Shown piece by piece: positions 3 to 5,530 of a stretch of 5,535 nucleotides of DNA. The first letter of the stretch is position 1. Each line of letters begins with the position of its first letter. The DNA comes from a virus (lineage: Duplodnaviria > Heunggongvirae > Uroviricota > Caudoviricetes). The position numbers and the translations under genes are program-made. Below the pieces are notes generated by a model. The model was not told the DNA's origin. It saw only the letters and a program-made list of their open reading frames with translations, and made no database searches. Location of the stretch: IMG/VR virus record IMGVR_UViG_2585427727_000006. One strand, given 5' to 3'.

Positions 3-680
3 TTCGTGGTAAGCACGCCGGAGGGGGAAAGATATTTCCCCTGCGTGAATATCTCCGGTGAGCCGGAGGCGTATTTCCGTATGTCGCCGGAAGACTGGCT
101 GCAGGCAGAAATGCAGGGTGAGATTGTGGCGCTGGTCCACAGCCACCCCGGTGGTCTGCCCTGGCTGAGTGAGGCCGACCGGCGGCTGCAGGTGCAGAGT
201 GATTTGCCGTGGTGGCTGGTCTGCCGGGGGACGATTCATAAGTTCCGCTGTGTGCCGCATCTCACCGGGCGTCGCTTTGAGCACGGGGTGACGGACTGTT
301 ACACGCTGTTCCGGGATGCTTATCATTTGGTGGGGATTGAGATGCAGGATTTTCATCGCGGGGATGACTGGTGGCGTAACGGTCAGAATCTCTATCTTGA
401 CAATATGGAGGCGACTGGTTTTTACCGTGTCGCACTGACAGAGGCGCAGCCTGGCGACGTGCTGCTGTGCTGCTTTGGTTCATCGGTGCCGAATCATGCC
501 GCCATTTACTGTGGTGACGGCGAGCTGCTGCACCATATTCCTGAACAACTGAGCAAACGAGAGAGGTATACCGACAAATGGCAGCGACGCACACACTCCC
601 TCTGGCGTCACCGGGCATGGCGCGCATCTGCCTTTACGGGGATTTACAACGATTTGGCCGCCGCATCGACCTTCGTGTGA
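3..680 (+). CDS. K: Tail tip assembly protein K (JAB/MPN plus NlpC/P60 domains), probably 5'-partial
   Basis: Reading frame is open from the window edge to TGA at 678-680. The translation carries a JAMM-type motif HSHPGGLPWLSEAD (HxH-x7-S-x2-D, nt ~138-182) and a downstream Cys/His arrangement typical of NlpC/P60 (GVTDCYTLF ... VPNHAAIYCG ... HH). Sequence is recognisably lambda gpK from memory. An internal ATG at 81 preceded by GGAGG (66-70) would give a 199-aa product, the length I recall for annotated lambda K, but that leaves too little sequence upstream of the HxH for a complete JAB domain, so the true start is probably upstream of the window. Confidence 0.9.
   Translation, partial: FVVSTPEGERYFPCVNISGEPEAYFRMSPEDWLQAEMQGEIVALVHSHPGGLPWLSEADRRLQVQSDLPWWLVCRGTIHKFRCVPHLTGRRFEHGVTDCYTLFRDAYHLVGIEMQDFHRGDDWWRNGQNLYLDNMEATGFYRVALTEAQPGDVLLCCFGSSVPNHAAIYCGDGELLHHIPEQLSKRERYTDKWQRRTHSLWRHRAWRASAFTGIYNDLAAASTFV
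561..566 (+). promoter_or_regulatory. Putative ribosome binding site for gene I (GAGAGG)
   Basis: Purine-rich GAGAGG lies 11 nt upstream of the I start codon at 578, inside the K coding sequence. Confidence 0.4.
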
Positions 681-1249
681 AAACGGGGGCTGAAGCCATT
701 CGGGCGCTGGCCACACAGCTCCCGGCGTTTCGTCAGAAACTGAGCGACGGCTGGTATCAGGTACGGATTTCCGGGCGGGACGTCAGCACGTCCGGATTGA
801 CGGCGCAGTTACATGAGGTTCTGCCTGACGGCGCTGTGATTCATATTGTTCCCAGAGTCGCCGGGGCCAAGTCAGGGGGCGTATTCCAGATTGTTCTGGG
901 GGCTGCCGCCATTGCCGGATCATTCTTTACTGCCGGAGCCACCCTTGCAGCATGGGGGGCAGCCATTGGGGCCGGTGGTATGACCGGTATCCTGTTTTCT
1001 CTCGGTGCCAGTATGGTACTTGGTGGTGTGGCGCAGATGCTGGCACCGAAAGCCAGAACTCCCCGTACACAGACAACGGATAACGGTAAGCAGAACACCT
1101 ATTTCTCCTCACTGGATAACATGGTTGCCCAGGGCAATGTTCTGCCTGTTCTGTACGGTGAAATGCGCGTGGGGTCGCGGGTGGCTTCTCAGGAGATCAG
1201 CACGGCAGACGAAGGGGATGGTGGTCAGGTTGTCGTGATTGGCCGCTGA
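578..1249 (+). CDS. I: Tail tip assembly protein I (ubiquitin-like N-terminal domain, Gly/Ala-rich hydrophobic C-terminal segment)
   Basis: 223-aa ORF from ATG 578 to TGA 1247-1249. It overlaps the 3' end of K by 103 nt in a different frame, as I recall for lambda K/I. Protein is recognisably lambda gpI from memory. Residues ~100-157 (nt ~875-1048) form a long Gly/Ala-rich hydrophobic stretch (GGVFQIVLGAAAIAGSFFTAGATLAAWGAAIGAGGMTGILFSLGASMVLGGVAQMLAP). Confidence 0.92.
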   Translation: MAATHTLPLASPGMARICLYGDLQRFGRRIDLRVKTGAEAIRALATQLPAFRQKLSDGWYQVRISGRDVSTSGLTAQLHEVLPDGAVIHIVPRVAGAKSGGVFQIVLGAAAIAGSFFTAGATLAAWGAAIGAGGMTGILFSLGASMVLGGVAQMLAPKARTPRTQTTDNGKQNTYFSSLDNMVAQGNVLPVLYGEMRVGSRVASQEISTADEGDGGQVVVIGR

Positions 1250-1309: not shown

Positions 1310-4300
1310 ATGGGTAAAGGCAGCAGTAAGGGGCATACCCCGCGCGAAGCGAAGGACAACCTGAAGTCCACGCAGCTGCTGAGTGTGATCGATGCCATCA
1401 GCGAAGGGCCGGTTGAAGGTCCGGTGGATGGATTAAAAAGCGTGCTGCTGAACAGTACGCCGGTGCTGGACAGTGAGGGGAATACCAATATCTCCGGCGT
1501 CACGGTGGTGTTCCGGGCAGGTGAGCAGGAGCAGACACCGCCGGAGGGGTTTGAATCCTCCGGCTCCGAGACGGTGCTGGGTACGGAAGTGAAATACGAC
1601 ACGCCGATCACCCGCACCATCACGTCGGCAAACATCGACCGTCTGCGCTTTACCTTCGGTGTGCAGGCACTGGTGGAAACCACCTCAAAGGGTGACAGGA
1701 ATCCGTCGGAAGTCCGCCTGCTGGTTCAGATACAACGTAACGGTGGCTGGGTGACGGAAAAAGACATCACCATTAAGGGCAAAACCACGTCGCAGTATCT
1801 GGCCTCGGTGGTGGTGGATAACCTGCCGCCACGCCCGTTTAATATCCGGATGCGCAGGATGACGCCGGACAGCACCACAGACCAGCTGCAGAACAAAACG
1901 CTCTGGTCGTCATACACCGAAATCATCGATGTGAAACAGTGCTACCCGAACACGGCACTGGTCGGCGTGCAGGTGGATTCGGAGCAGTTCGGCAGCCAGC
2001 AGGTGAGCCGTAATTATCATCTGCGCGGGCGTATTCTGCAGGTGCCGTCGAATTATAACCCGCAGACGCGGCAATACAGCGGTATCTGGGACGGAACGTT
2101 TAAACCGGCATACAGCAACAACATGGCCTGGTGTCTGTGGGATATGCTGACCCACCCGCGCTACGGCATGGGGAAACGTCTTGGTGCGGCGGATGTGGAT
2201 AAATGGGCGCTGTATGTCATCGGCCAGTACTGCGACCAGTCAGTGCCGGACGGCTTTGGCGGCACGGAGCCGCGCATCACCTGTAATGCGTACCTGACCA
2301 CACAGCGCAAGGCGTGGGATGTGCTCAGTGATTTCTGCTCGGCGATGCGCTGTATGCCGGTATGGAACGGGCAGACGCTGACGTTCGTGCAGGACCGACC
2401 ATCAGATAAGGTGTGGACCTATAACCGCAGTAATGTGGTGATGCCGGATGATGGCGCGCCGTTCCGCTACAGCTTCAGCGCCCTGAAGGACCGCCATAAT
2501 GCCGTTGAGGTGAACTGGATTGACCCGAACAACGGCTGGGAGACGGCGACAGAGCTCGTGGAGGATACGCAGGCCATTGCCCGTTACGGCCGTAACGTCA
2601 CGAAGATGGATGCCTTTGGCTGTACCAGTCGGGGGCAGGCACACCGCGCCGGGCTGTGGCTGATTAAAACGGAGCTGCTGGAAACGCAGACCGTGGACTT
2701 CAGCGTGGGTGCTGAAGGGCTTCGCCATGTACCGGGGGATGTCATTGAAATCTGCGATGATGACTATGCCGGTATCAGCATCGGTGGGCGTGTGCTGGCG
2801 GTGAACAGCCAGACCCGGACGCTGACGCTCGACCGTGAAATCACGCTGCCATCCTCCGGCACCACGCTGATAAGCCTGGTTGACGGGCAGGGGAATCCGG
2901 TCAGCGTGGAGGTCCAGTCCGTCACCGACGGTGTGAAGGTGAAAGTGAGCCGTGTTCCTGACGGCGTTGCCGGATACAGCGTGTGGGGGCTGAAGCTGCC
3001 GATGCTGCGCCAGCGCCTGTTCCGCTGTGTGAGTATCCGTGAGAACGATGACGGCACGTATGCCATCACTGCCGTGCAGCATGTACCGGAGAAAGAAGCC
3101 ATCGTGGATAACGGGGCGTACTTTGACGGCGACCAGAGCGGAACGGTGAACGGTGTCACGCCGCCCGCGGTGCAGCACCTGACTGCAGAAGTCACCGCAG
3201 ACAGCGGGGAATACCAGGTGCTGGCGCGCTGGGACACGCCGAAGGTGGTGAAGGGGGGGAGCTTTATGCTTCGCCTGACCGTGGCAGCGGATGACGGCAG
3301 TGAGCGGCTGGTCAGCACGGCCAGGACGACGGAAACCACATACCGCTTCAGGCAACTGGCGCTGGGGAACTACAAGCTGACAGTCCGGGCGGTAAATGCG
3401 TGGGGGCAGCAGGGGGATCCGGCGTCAGTATCGTTCCGGATTGCCGCACCGGCAGCGCCATCGCGGATTGAGCTGACGCCGGGCTATTTTCAGATAACCG
3501 CAACGCCGCATCTTGCCGTTTATGATCCGACGGTACAGTTTGAGTTCTGGTTCTCGGAAAAGCGGATTGCGGATATCAGGCAGGTTGAAGCCAGCGCGCG
3601 TTATCTTGGTACGGCGCTGTACTGGATAGCCGCCAGTATCAATATCAAACCGGGCCATGATTATTATTTTTACATTCGCAGTGTGAACACCGTTGGCAAA
3701 TCGGCATTTGTGGAGGCTGTTGGCCATCCGAGTGATGATGCATCCGGCTATCTGGATTTTTTCAAAGGAGAGATAGGGAAAACCCATCTGGCTCAGGAGT
3801 TGTGGACGCAGATTGATAACGGTCAGCTTGCGCCTGACCTGGCTGAAATCAGGACGTCCATTACGGATGTCAGCAATGAAATCACGCAGACCGTCAATAA
3901 GAAACTGGAAGACCAGAGTGCAGCGATCCAGCAGATACAGAAGGTTCAGGTTGATACAAATAATAACCTGAACAGCATGTGGGCTGTGAAGCTGCAGCAG
4001 ATGCAGGACGGACGCCTTTATATCGCGGGTATTGGTGCCGGTATTGAGAATACCCCTGACGGTATGCAGAGTCAGGTGCTGCTGGCGGCGGACAGGATTG
4101 CGATGATTAATCCTGCGAATGGCAATACAAAGCCGATGTTTGTTGGTCAGGGCGATCAGATATTTATGAATGAAGTGTTCCTGAAATATCTGACGGCTCC
4201 CACCATTACCAGTGGTGGCAGTCCTCCGGTATTTTCCCTGACACCGGACGGAAAGCTGACCGCTAAAAATGCGGATATCAGTGGTAGTGTGAATGCGAAC

Positions 4301-4807
4301 TCAGGAACGCTCAACAATGTCACGATTAACCAGAACTGTACGATTAAGGGCATGCTGGAGGCGACTCAGGTCAGAGGTGACTTCGTTAAAGCTGTATCCA
4401 AATCATTTCCGAAACAGGCTGGTACGTGGGGTAACACGGAAACACCAAACGGGACGGTTACAGTCACCATCAGCGATGATCATAACTTTGACCGTCAAAT
4501 CATTATTCCGCCCATTATCTTTAACGGAATAGCGTATAGCGATCCGGGAAGTGGTAATAACCCGGGAGGTACAAGATACACGGGTTATGGTTTTGAAGTT
4601 CGCAAAAACGGTGTATTAATCGCATCCAGAGAAACTAAAGGGGCCATTCCCGGTAGCTACAGTGCGGTTATTGATATGCCGAGTGGCAGGGGAAGCGTCA
4701 CTCTGGAGTTTAAGGTTTTCCATAAAGGCAATCAGTGGGCAGGTAATATCACCGACTGTACGGTGATTGTGACCAAAAAAGCCGCTTCCGGCATCAGTAT
4801 TCGTTGA
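1310..4807 (+). CDS. J: Host specificity protein J (central tail fiber / tail tip attachment protein), 1165 aa
   Basis: Single uninterrupted 3498-nt ORF from ATG 1310 to TGA 4805-4807. The protein is recognisably lambda gpJ-like over most of its length, including fibronectin-III-like repeats in the central part (aa ~620-800). The 61-nt I-J spacing matches what I recall for lambda. The C-terminal ~160 aa are related to but clearly diverged from the lambda receptor-binding region as I recall it, and the protein is ~33 aa longer than lambda J (1132 aa). Confidence 0.95.
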
Positions 4808-4828
4808 AATTGTTATAACCCATATAAG

Positions 4829-4852
4829 GGCACCAGAAATGGTGCCTTTTTT
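4829..4852 (+). terminator. Putative intrinsic terminator downstream of J
   Basis: Perfect 6-bp GC-rich stem GGCACC (4829-4834) / GGTGCC (4841-4846) with loop AGAAAT, immediately followed by TTTTTTATT (4847 onward). Lies 22 nt after the J stop codon. Confidence 0.6.
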
Positions 4853-4876: not shown

Positions 4877-5476
4877 ATGCGTAAACTTTATGCCGCCATT
4901 TTGTCCGCAGCCATTTGTCTGGCCGTATCCGGTGCGCCTGCATGGGCATCTGAACATCAGTCCACGCTGAGCGCGGGGTATCTTCATGCCTTGACGAACG
5001 TTCCCGGCAGCGATGATCTTAACGGGATTAACGTGAAATACCGTTATGAGTTTACGGACACACTGGGGCTGGTGACGTCATTCAGCTATGCAGGAGACAA
5101 GAATCGCCAGCTTACCCGTTACAGCGATACCCGCTGGCATGAAGATTCCGTGCGTAACCGCTGGTTCAGCGTGATGGCGGGGCCGTCTGTGCGCGTGAAT
5201 GAATGGTTCAGCGCGTATGCGATGGCGGGTATGGCTTACAGCCGTGTTTCGACTTTCTCCGGAGATTATCTTCGCGTAACTGACAACAAGGGGAAAAAGC
5301 ACGATGTGCTGACCGGAAGTGATGACGGTCGCCACAGCAACACGTCTCTGGCGTGGGGGGCTGGCGTGCAGTTTAACCCGACCGAATCCGTGGCCATTGA
5401 TATTGCTTATGAAGGCTCCGGCAGTGGTGACTGGCGCACTGACGGTTTCATCGTGGGTGTCGGTTATAAATTCTGA
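4877..5476 (+). CDS. lom: Lom-family outer membrane beta-barrel protein (Ail/Lom/OmpX/PagC family)
   Basis: 199-aa ORF from ATG 4877 to TGA 5474-5476. N-terminal signal peptide [24 protein letters not shown] with an AxA cleavage site. Alternating hydrophobic beta-strand pattern and a C-terminus ...[23 protein letters not shown] ending in aromatic-x-aromatic, typical of OM beta-barrels and matching the lambda Lom C-terminus as I recall it. Position directly downstream of J matches lambda gene order. Confidence 0.92.
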
Positions 5477-5502: not shown

Positions 5503-5530
5503 AGCCCGCCGGTTCAGGCGGGCTTTTTTG
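5503..5530 (+). terminator. Putative intrinsic terminator downstream of lom
   Basis: 8-bp stem AGCCCGCC (5503-5510) / GGCGGGCT (5517-5524) with loop GGTTCA, followed by a T-run (5524-5529). Lies 27 nt after the lom stop codon. Confidence 0.7.

What the first reader, a model, noticed from the sequence alone, without database searches (positions are those of the whole stretch)
4320..4807. J carries a diverged, longer C-terminal receptor-binding domain than lambda J
Most of this J is lambda-like, but from about ...NNVTINQNC (nt ~4320) to the end the sequence departs from the lambda J C-terminus as I remember it. It contains extra segments (for example [21 protein letters not shown]) and ends ...[12 protein letters not shown] rather than lambda's ...MKKATAGITIS. 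The C-terminal ~150-250 aa of lambda J are the LamB-binding determinant, so a swapped or diverged tip suggests a different receptor or receptor allele. This is a classic host-range mosaic but the target receptor cannot be read from sequence.
Basis: partly seen in the sequence, partly recalled or inferred. Interest (0 to 1): 0.55.

Follow-up and report, generated by a model that had tools for sequence, protein, structure and literature searches.

The report
Phage-434-type receptor tip on J
The tail-tip protein J of this E. coli prophage carries the well-known phage-434 version of the receptor-binding tip, which in phage 434 uses the porin OmpC instead of lambda's LamB; this tip is far commoner in E. 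coli genomes than lambda's own, so the finding is real but ordinary.

Summary
From J residue 1002 (nt 4313) to the stop (nt 4807) the protein is 42.5% identical to lambda J, with five indels.

The tip is not new. It is 95.7% identical, with no indels, to the phage 434 J tip, the classical h434 host-range allele. It is 100% identical to the tip of phage ev099. Full-length copies at about 90% nucleotide identity or more occur in 2,091 of 5,426 complete E. coli genomes; lambda's tip occurs in 96.

It matches the Pfam J receptor-binding domain. Its AlphaFold2 model best matches solved lambda gpJ and the OmpC-bound A8 gpJ structure. The receptor can therefore be predicted by homology as OmpC, at about 0.78 confidence. 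OmpC-allele specificity remains unknown.

Only 5 of the 33 extra residues lie in the tip. They form four heptads that lengthen the alpha-helical shaft.

Verdict: already known, low interest.

The parts
1310..4807 (+). Gene J (tip attachment protein / central tail fibre), 1165 aa
   Evidence: ORF. Pfam hits in order: FNIII-A_GpJ, Phage-tail_3, Ig_J, Ig_J_second, Phage_Tail_Tip, Ig_GpJ_C. Annotated gpJ (WP_032346580.1) in 100%-identical E. coli O166:H15 chromosomes.
1310..3724 (+). Lambda-like hub and FNIII part of J (aa 1-805)
   Evidence: 97.4% aa identity to lambda, 98.3% to 434, 98.0% to ev099, no gaps.
3725..4186 (+). Alternative shaft/prism module (aa 806-959): alpha-helical shaft plus most of the beta-prism
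   Evidence: 55% identical to both lambda and 434 with 28 gap columns, 99.4% to ev099. DNA identity to lambda falls to 0.20-0.40 at nt 3770-3980. Found in 3,545 of 5,426 E. coli genomes.
3815..3907 (+). Region holding the 28 extra residues (aa 836-856 and 860-866) in the helical shaft
   Evidence: Gap positions. Hydrophobic residues at 840, 844, 847, 851, 854, 858, 862 and 866 follow a/d heptad spacing. The AF2 monomer model puts aa 840-889 in one helix, pLDDT 75-89. Lambda's shaft is aa 809-861 (PMC11101478).
4187..4312 (+). Conserved joint (aa 960-1001, ...[10 protein letters not shown]...NANSGTL) between shaft/prism and tip; likely recombination site
   Evidence: 93-95% aa and about 95-98% nt identity to lambda and 434. 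The engineered swap point at lambda aa 964 (= window aa 992) lies inside it (PMC11338833).
4313..4807 (+). 434-type receptor-binding cassette (aa 1002-1165 plus stop)
   Evidence: 42.5% identical to lambda, 95.7% to 434 with no indels, 100% to ev099. 74 phage records at 90% aa identity or more and none between 60 and 90%. 2,091 of 5,426 E. coli genomes.
4394..4801 (+). Ig-like receptor-binding domain proper (Pfam Ig_GpJ_C, aa 1029-1164)
   Evidence: PF12421, E = 9e-26. AF2 model is all-beta, pLDDT about 80-94. Best fold matches are 8xcj/8xck (lambda gpJ) and 9wca/9wcb (A8 gpJ, the latter with OmpC).
4403..4450 (+). Variable patch 1 (aa 1032-1047), includes the +2 indel vs lambda
   Evidence: Indel at aa 1040-1041. 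Polymorphic positions 1032, 1036, 1037 and 1047 within 434-type tips. Four of the 7 differences from 434 lie here.
4529..4576 (+). Variable patch 2 (aa 1074-1089), the [11 protein letters not shown] hairpin with the +6 indel
   Evidence: Indel at aa 1082-1087. Lies between predicted strands 1075-1078 and 1087-1090. Polymorphic at 1077 and 1078.
4682..4750 (+). Variable patches 3 and 4 (aa 1125-1129 and 1135-1147), with the +2 and -6 indels
   Evidence: The differences from 434, R1127G and W1143R, fall here.
4826..4849 (+). Terminator-like hairpin after J
   Evidence: 10-bp stem followed by a T run. 434 is annotated with a terminator at the same place.
4877..5476 (+). lom (Ail/Lom outer-membrane beta-barrel), same neighbour as in lambda and 434
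   Evidence: Pfam Ail_Lom, E = 6e-120. Annotations.
578..1249 (+). Gene I (tail tip assembly protein), upstream neighbour
   Evidence: Pfam Lambda_tail_I. Same K/I overlap as in lambda.
6..680 (+). Gene K (JAB + NlpC/P60 peptidase), 5' end cut by the window
   Evidence: Pfam hits. The host annotation starts 64 nt before the window.

Best explanation
The last 164 residues of this J protein are the phage-434-type receptor-binding cassette. They are joined to a lambda-like J through a conserved recombination joint (aa 960-1001). By analogy with lambda, three copies of this Ig-like domain sit at the distal end of the trimeric central tail fibre. Their distal loops insert into an outer-membrane porin trimer, and binding is relayed up the beta-prism and helical shaft to open the tail tip. 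Because the domain is nearly identical to that of phage 434, the porin is most likely OmpC rather than LamB. Shown here: the divergence from lambda, the identity to 434 and ev099, the domain family, the fold match and the population frequency. Inferred: OmpC as the receptor of this exact variant, and the lambda-like triggering mechanism.
For: Sequence: 95.7% aa identity and no indels to the 434 J tip, 100% to ev099, against 42.5% with five indels to lambda. Tip types are discrete: no phage record lies between 60 and 90% identity. Domain and fold: Pfam Ig_GpJ_C over aa 1029-1164. phmmer hits to gpJ chains 9wca, 8xcj and 8iyk at E = 1e-91 to 6e-102. The AF2 model's best fold matches are lambda gpJ-LamB (8xcj) and A8 gpJ-OmpC (9wcb). 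Receptor: 434 J redirects lambda to OmpC (PMC3509688; PMC11101478; PMC12502783). In lambda h434 imm21 the left crossover lies at J aa ~706-711, and lambda and 434 differ by only 8 residues between there and the tip. Other natural tips swapped at the same joint (A8, 1A2) also use OmpC (PMC11338833). Function: phages with tips 95.7-96.3% identical at the protein level (mEp332, PhiR26_1) or 96.2% identical at the DNA level (phi458) are recorded with K-12 hosts (K-12 MG1655, MC1061), and Ayreon (95.8% DNA identity) was isolated on a K-12 derivative (PMC5764929). The gene sits in a complete lambda-like late operon.
Against: No adsorption data exist for this exact variant. It differs from 434 at 7 tip residues (S1032A, Q1036K, A1037V, N1047D, S1077D, R1127G, W1143R). 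All 7 lie in the patches that vary among 434-type tips. I infer that five of them (1036, 1037, 1047, 1077, 1143) lie in or beside loops corresponding to the loops AlphaFold3 predicts to contact OmpC in 434 (PMC12502783); that correspondence rests only on residue spacing, because the paper gives numbering for phi330, not 434. A few J substitutions can change porin use in lambda (LamB to OmpF; cited in PMC11101478). A8 and 1A2 show that OmpC-allele specificity differs between tips. The h434 hybrid also carries 434 lom and stf, so it does not by itself pin host range to the tip. The AF2 models are monomers, and no complex was modelled.
Confidence: 0.78

Rival explanations
1. Same 434-type cassette, but the 7 loop substitutions retune it to a particular set of OmpC alleles (for example that of its own host lineage), so it may work poorly or not at all on K-12 OmpC.
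For: All 7 differences from 434 fall in the four polymorphic patches. The A8 and 1A2 tips both use OmpC but accept different alleles (PMC11338833). E. coli OmpC is highly polymorphic: 74-76 variants in that study.
Against: No recorded K-12 host exists for a phage with a tip of 98.8% protein identity or more (ev099, Perceval and the Stx-converting phages list none), so there is no direct evidence against this rival. The K-12-plating phages carry tips only about as close to the window's as 434's own: 95.7% for mEp332, 96.3% for PhiR26_1, and about 96% at the DNA level for phi458 and Ayreon. That shows only that this tip family tolerates some sequence variation on K-12 OmpC. This rival is a refinement of the best explanation rather than a true alternative.
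Confidence: 0.15
2. The tip uses a different porin (OmpF, LamB or another outer-membrane protein) despite its similarity to 434.
For: Lambda J can gain OmpF use through a few point mutations (cited in PMC11101478). No direct receptor assay exists for this variant.
Against: 95.7% identity and no indels to an OmpC-using tip. Only 42.5% identity to the LamB-binding tip. Three other natural tip types in this family (A8, 1A2, phi330) also use OmpC.
Confidence: 0.05
3. The gene is a decaying prophage remnant and the tip has no current function.
For: It lies in a chromosome, and many E. coli lambdoid prophages are defective.
Against: The 1165-codon ORF is intact. Its tip is 100% identical to that of an isolated phage (ev099). 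All late genes from terminase to the side tail fibre are present and intact. The window is identical in five genomes.
Confidence: 0.02

Closest known systems
Phage 434 central tail fibre J (h434 host-range allele; OL657226, UMO75286.1)
   Same: The tip (aa 1002-1165) is 95.7% identical with no indels. It has the same conserved joint, the same downstream lom and terminator, and the same lambda-like hub.
   Different: There are seven substitutions in the tip, all in variable patches. 434 has the short lambda-type helical shaft, whereas this J has the 28-aa-longer shaft module.
Escherichia phage ev099 J (LR597635, VUF53445.1) and relatives (cdtI, phi458, Ayreon, Stx2c/Stx1a-converting phages)
   Same: ev099 J has the same length (1165 aa), is 98% identical overall, and has a 100% identical tip and a 99.4% identical shaft module. 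The whole window is 96% identical at the DNA level.
   Different: Five substitutions lie in the conserved joint, where the window looks more like lambda and 434. No receptor data were found for these phages.
Lambda gpJ (P03749; structures 8IYK, 8XCK, 8XCJ with LamB)
   Same: It has the same domain order (hub, FNIII x2, helical shaft, beta-prism, Ig-like tip) and is 97% identical over aa 1-805. The tip has the same fold.
   Different: The tip is only 42.5% identical, with five indels in or at the edges of loops. The shaft module is 55% identical and 28 aa shorter in lambda. Lambda's receptor is LamB.
Natural OmpC-binding tips A8 (structures 9WCA, 9WCB with OmpC), 1A2 and phi330
   Same: They belong to the same domain family and are exchangeable at the same joint. 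They use a porin receptor, OmpC.
   Different: They are different cassettes, roughly 45-57% identical to the window tip.

Membership tests
Lambda-family tip attachment protein J (central tail fibre) | Domain order: hub domains, two FNIII/Ig domains, tail-tip fibre, C-terminal Ig receptor-binding domain | tested here: met
   Pfam FNIII-A_GpJ, Phage-tail_3, Ig_J, Ig_J_second, Phage_Tail_Tip and Ig_GpJ_C, in that order and all above the curated cut-offs.
Lambda-family tip attachment protein J (central tail fibre) | Gene position: after K and I, before lom and stf in the late operon | tested here: met
   K, I, J and lom are in the window. The full late operon and stf are present in the host genome.
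Lambda-family tip attachment protein J (central tail fibre) | Trimer forming the closed tail tip and central fibre | not testable with these tools
   Only monomer AF2 models were available. As expected for an intertwined trimer, the beta-prism is poorly predicted (pLDDT below 50).
434-type (h434) receptor-binding cassette | Near-identity to the 434 J tip with no indels | tested here: met
   157 of 164 residues identical, 0 gaps. Identity to phage tips is bimodal, so type assignment is unambiguous.
434-type (h434) receptor-binding cassette | Infection depends on OmpC, not LamB | not testable with these tools
   Known for 434 from the literature only. No assay exists for this variant.
   42.5% identity and 17 gap columns in five indels.
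A8 / 1A2 OmpC-binding tip types | Near-identity to those cassettes | tested here: not met
   About 55% identity to A8. The 1A2 DNA shares none of the four window-tip oligonucleotides (16-22 nt) searched and ends ...KKATAGITIS.
Ig-like gpJ receptor-binding fold | All-beta Ig-like domain superposable on solved gpJ tips | tested here: met
   The AF2 model of aa 1026-1156 is all-beta with pLDDT about 80-94. The top four Foldseek hits are gpJ tips, at E = 4e-17 to 2e-15, with TM 0.68 to 9wcb.

The most novel reading that the evidence does not exclude
The window subtype of the 434-type tip differs from 434 at seven residues. All seven lie in the four patches that vary within this tip type. I infer that five of them lie in or beside loops corresponding to the predicted OmpC-contact loops of 434. 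The subtype could therefore recognise a different set of OmpC alleles, or less likely another porin. Together with the four-heptad-longer helical shaft, it could represent the 'wild' solution for reaching porins on O-antigen-bearing E. coli, with lambda and 434 being short-shaft laboratory oddities.
Probability: 0.15. Interest if true: 0.3.

Novelty: already known. Interest (0 to 1): 0.12.

Why it matters
It matters little as a discovery. The tip is the long-known h434 host-range cassette, it is present in sequenced phages with an identical protein sequence, and RefSeq already annotates it as gpJ.

The useful outcomes are corrective. Lambda's own LamB-binding tip is the rare form (96 of 5,426 genomes), while this OmpC-type tip (2,091 genomes) and the longer shaft (3,545 genomes) are the common natural forms. 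That bears on choosing J tips for engineered lambda-based delivery vectors and on predicting prophage host range from sequence.

Tried and rejected
1. I looked for the window tip among the engineered tips of Brodel et al. 2024. Peptide and oligonucleotide searches of the supplements found nothing. Reading the 1A2 sequence showed it is another type, ending ...KKATAGITIS. From the PDB alignment, A8 is about 55% identical.

2. I searched the literature for receptor assays on phages with this exact tip: ev099, phi458, Ayreon, mEp332 and the PhiR phages. None were found. Only the propagation hosts are known: K-12 hosts in the sequence records for phi458, mEp332 and PhiR26_1, and a K-12 derivative for Ayreon (PMC5764929).

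3. I tried to use the lambda h434 imm21 hybrid to pin host range to the tip. The hybrid's 434 segment starts in J at aa ~706-711 but extends through lom, stf and beyond. It is therefore supportive, not decisive.

4. The AF2 monomer model of aa 800-1003 is confident only for the helical part. The beta-prism is unreliable and was not used.

5. Strand-versus-loop conservation relative to lambda showed no clear contrast (38% vs 32%) and was not used as evidence.

6. The paper describing the A8-OmpC structure (9WCA/9WCB) is not in the searchable library.

7. Loop numbering L1-L4 of lambda could not be retrieved from the text (one search failed). Loop equivalence is therefore inferred from strand order and spacing only.

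Full report
**What is in the window.** The 5,535-nt window is the distal tail block of a lambda-like prophage.
- It holds K (6-680, 5' end cut by the window), I (578-1249), J (1310-4807, 1165 aa) and lom (4877-5476).
- Terminator-like hairpins follow J (4826-4849) and lom (5503-5524).
- The window is 100% identical to five E. coli chromosomes, three of them annotated O166:H15. There it sits in a complete lambda-type late operon running from terminase to the side tail fibre.
- RefSeq already names the protein 'phage attachment tail tip protein J' (WP_032346580.1).

**Checking the observation.** I aligned the window J with authentic lambda J (NC_001416, 1132 aa), phage 434 J (OL657226, 1137 aa) and phage ev099 J (LR597635, 1165 aa), then measured identity by segment.

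| Window aa | Window nt | vs lambda | vs 434 | vs ev099 |
|---|---|---|---|---|
| 1-805 | 1310-3724 | 97.4% | 98.3% | 98.0% |
| 806-959 | 3725-4186 | 55%, 28 gap columns | 55.6%, 28 gap columns | 99.4% |
| 960-1001 | 4187-4312 | 93% | 95% | 88% |
| 1002-1165 | 4313-4804 | 42.5%, 17 gap columns | 95.7%, no gaps | 100% |

- The DNA identity profile shows the same boundaries.
- Every quoted peptide is present.
- The recalled lambda C-terminus was wrong. Lambda ends ...VMVIKKQALGISVV. 'MKKATAGITIS' is the end of another natural tip, 1A2, whose sequence I read in the supplement of PMC11338833.
- 'Longer' is only marginally true for the tip: 164 vs 159 aa. Twenty-eight of the 33 extra residues lie upstream.

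**What the tip is.**
- Pfam places 'Tip attachment protein J, C-terminal receptor binding domain' (PF12421) on aa 1029-1164.
- Sequence search of the PDB hits gpJ chains only. The best is the 'A8 gpJ' fragment (9wca, E = 6e-102), followed by lambda gpJ (8xcj, 8iyk).
- An AlphaFold2 model of aa 960-1165, built on 26 homologues, is all-beta with pLDDT about 80-94 over aa 1026-1156.
- The four best structural matches are lambda gpJ closed and LamB-bound (8xck, 8xcj) and A8 gpJ closed and OmpC-bound (9wca, 9wcb).
- The indels relative to lambda fall in, or at the edges of, the loops between predicted strands: aa 1040-1041, 1082-1087, 1115, 1137-1138, and a 6-aa deletion after 1147.
- Four distal loops make the LamB contacts in lambda (PMC11101478). 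That the window's loops are their equivalents is my inference from strand order, not a measured superposition.

**Which receptor.** The tip belongs to the 434 type.
- Replacing lambda J with 434 J redirects the phage to OmpC, the receptor of 434 (PMC3509688; PMC11101478; PMC12502783).
- In the sequenced hybrid lambda h434 imm21, the left crossover lies inside J between lambda nt 17619 and 17637, at aa ~706-711.
- Between that point and the tip, lambda and 434 differ at only 8 residues. The hybrid also carries 434 lom and stf, so it is supportive rather than decisive.
- Natural tips A8 and 1A2, grafted onto lambda J at aa 964, also switch the particle from LamB to OmpC, with different OmpC-allele preferences (PMC11338833). 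Lambda aa 964 equals window aa 992, inside the conserved joint.
- A further type, phi330, is OmpC-dependent by knockout and complementation (PMC12502783).
- OmpC is thus the receptor reported for each non-lambda tip of this domain family that I found with receptor data (434, A8, 1A2, phi330). The window's tip is nearly identical to one of them.
- I put OmpC at about 0.78. What the sequence cannot tell is the allele specificity.

**Differences from 434 within the tip.**
- The window differs from 434 at S1032A, Q1036K, A1037V, N1047D, S1077D, R1127G and W1143R.
- Among 46 database proteins of the 434 type, common polymorphism is confined to four patches: aa 1032-1047, 1074-1089, 1125-1129 and 1135-1143. 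The stretches between them are nearly invariant apart from rare single variants. All seven differences lie in these patches.
- AlphaFold3 models in PMC12502783 predict that 434 contacts OmpC through three loops. Residue numbers are given there only for phi330.
- By spacing, these loops correspond to window aa ~1038-1046, ~1076-1087 and ~1138-1146. That mapping is an inference.

**How common it is.**
- In 5,426 complete E. coli genomes, the window-type tip is present full-length in 2,091. Lambda's tip is present in 96, several of the listed examples being K-12 strains.
- Among phage records, tip identity is bimodal. Seventy-four records are at 90% or more, including ev099, Perceval, mEp332, Stx1a/Stx2c/Stx2d-converting phages and 434 relatives. 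One hundred sixty-nine are below 60%, and none lie between.
- The tips are therefore discrete cassettes, and this one is a majority type.
- Phages with tips 95.7-96.3% identical at the protein level (mEp332, PhiR26_1) or 96.2% identical at the DNA level (phi458) are recorded with K-12 hosts. Ayreon (95.8% DNA identity) was isolated on a K-12 derivative (PMC5764929).

Residues 806-959 form a second exchanged module.
- In lambda this stretch is the alpha-helical shaft (aa 809-861) plus the upper beta-prism. Both refold on receptor binding and pull the tail tube toward the membrane (PMC11101478).
- The window has 28 extra residues here, at aa 836-856 and 860-866 in the alignment.
- Their hydrophobic residues (840, 844, 847, 851, 854, 858, 862, 866) keep the 3-4 spacing of a coiled coil.
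- A monomer AF2 model puts aa 840-889 in one helix at pLDDT 75-89.
- The shaft is thus four heptads longer, roughly 4 nm if fully helical (inference).
- This long-shaft module occurs in 3,545 of 5,426 genomes.
- It is found combined with several tip types, and the short shaft is found with the 434 tip (P0005, P0012, P0061, P0073 and P0112). The modules therefore assort independently around the conserved joint.

**Verdict.** The cassette, however, is the classical 434-type tip. It is identical to one already sequenced in isolated phages and annotated in RefSeq, and it is far commoner than lambda's own tip. The receptor can be predicted (OmpC), and only the allele specificity is open. Novelty: already known. 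Interest: low.

Noticed in passing
window 3725-4186 (J aa 806-959), insertion at 3815-3907: This is a second mosaic module, 55% identical to lambda and 434. It carries 28 extra residues with heptad spacing that lengthen the alpha-helical shaft by four heptads. It accounts for most of J's extra length and occurs in 3,545 of 5,426 E. coli genomes.
   Followed up: partly
window 4187-4312 (J aa 960-1001): In the conserved joint the window is closer to lambda and 434 (about 95-98% nt) than to ev099 (85-90%), although both flanks are ev099-like. This looks like a fine-scale recombination patch. The engineered swap site at lambda aa 964 lies inside it.
   Followed up: partly
window 4403-4450, 4529-4576, 4682-4696, 4712-4738: Within 434-type tips, common polymorphism is confined to four short patches separated by stretches that are nearly invariant apart from rare single variants. 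All seven window-vs-434 differences lie in these patches, which is consistent with diversifying selection on receptor-contact loops.
   Followed up: partly
E. coli genome collection; L001:5425-5904: Lambda's own LamB-binding tip is rare in nature. It is found in 96 of 5,426 complete E. coli genomes, all at 99% identity or more and several of the listed examples being K-12 strains. The 434-type tip is found in 2,091.
   Followed up: yes
1A2 is an OmpC-binding type that delivered to cells carrying the EDL933 (O157) OmpC allele but not to those carrying the MG1655 allele.
   Followed up: yes
L004 (lambda h434 imm21), J aa ~706-711: The left crossover of the classical h434 hybrid lies inside J between lambda nt 17619 and 17637. 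The 434-derived DNA continues through lom, stf and into NleB/NleC-like effector genes.
   Followed up: partly
window 578-1249 vs 677-1249: RefSeq annotates gene I in the host genome as starting at window nt 677 (190 aa). The lambda-equivalent start, which overlaps K, is at nt 578 (223 aa). This is a start-codon annotation discrepancy.
   Followed up: no
window 4826-4849 and 5503-5524: Terminator-like hairpins with T runs follow J and lom, at the same positions as terminators annotated in phage 434.
   Followed up: no
L005 25541-29719 (downstream of the window in the host genome): The prophage carries a 790-aa side tail fibre gene and a second tail-fibre-domain gene after lom, so host recognition probably also involves a side fibre that was not analysed here.
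   Followed up: no
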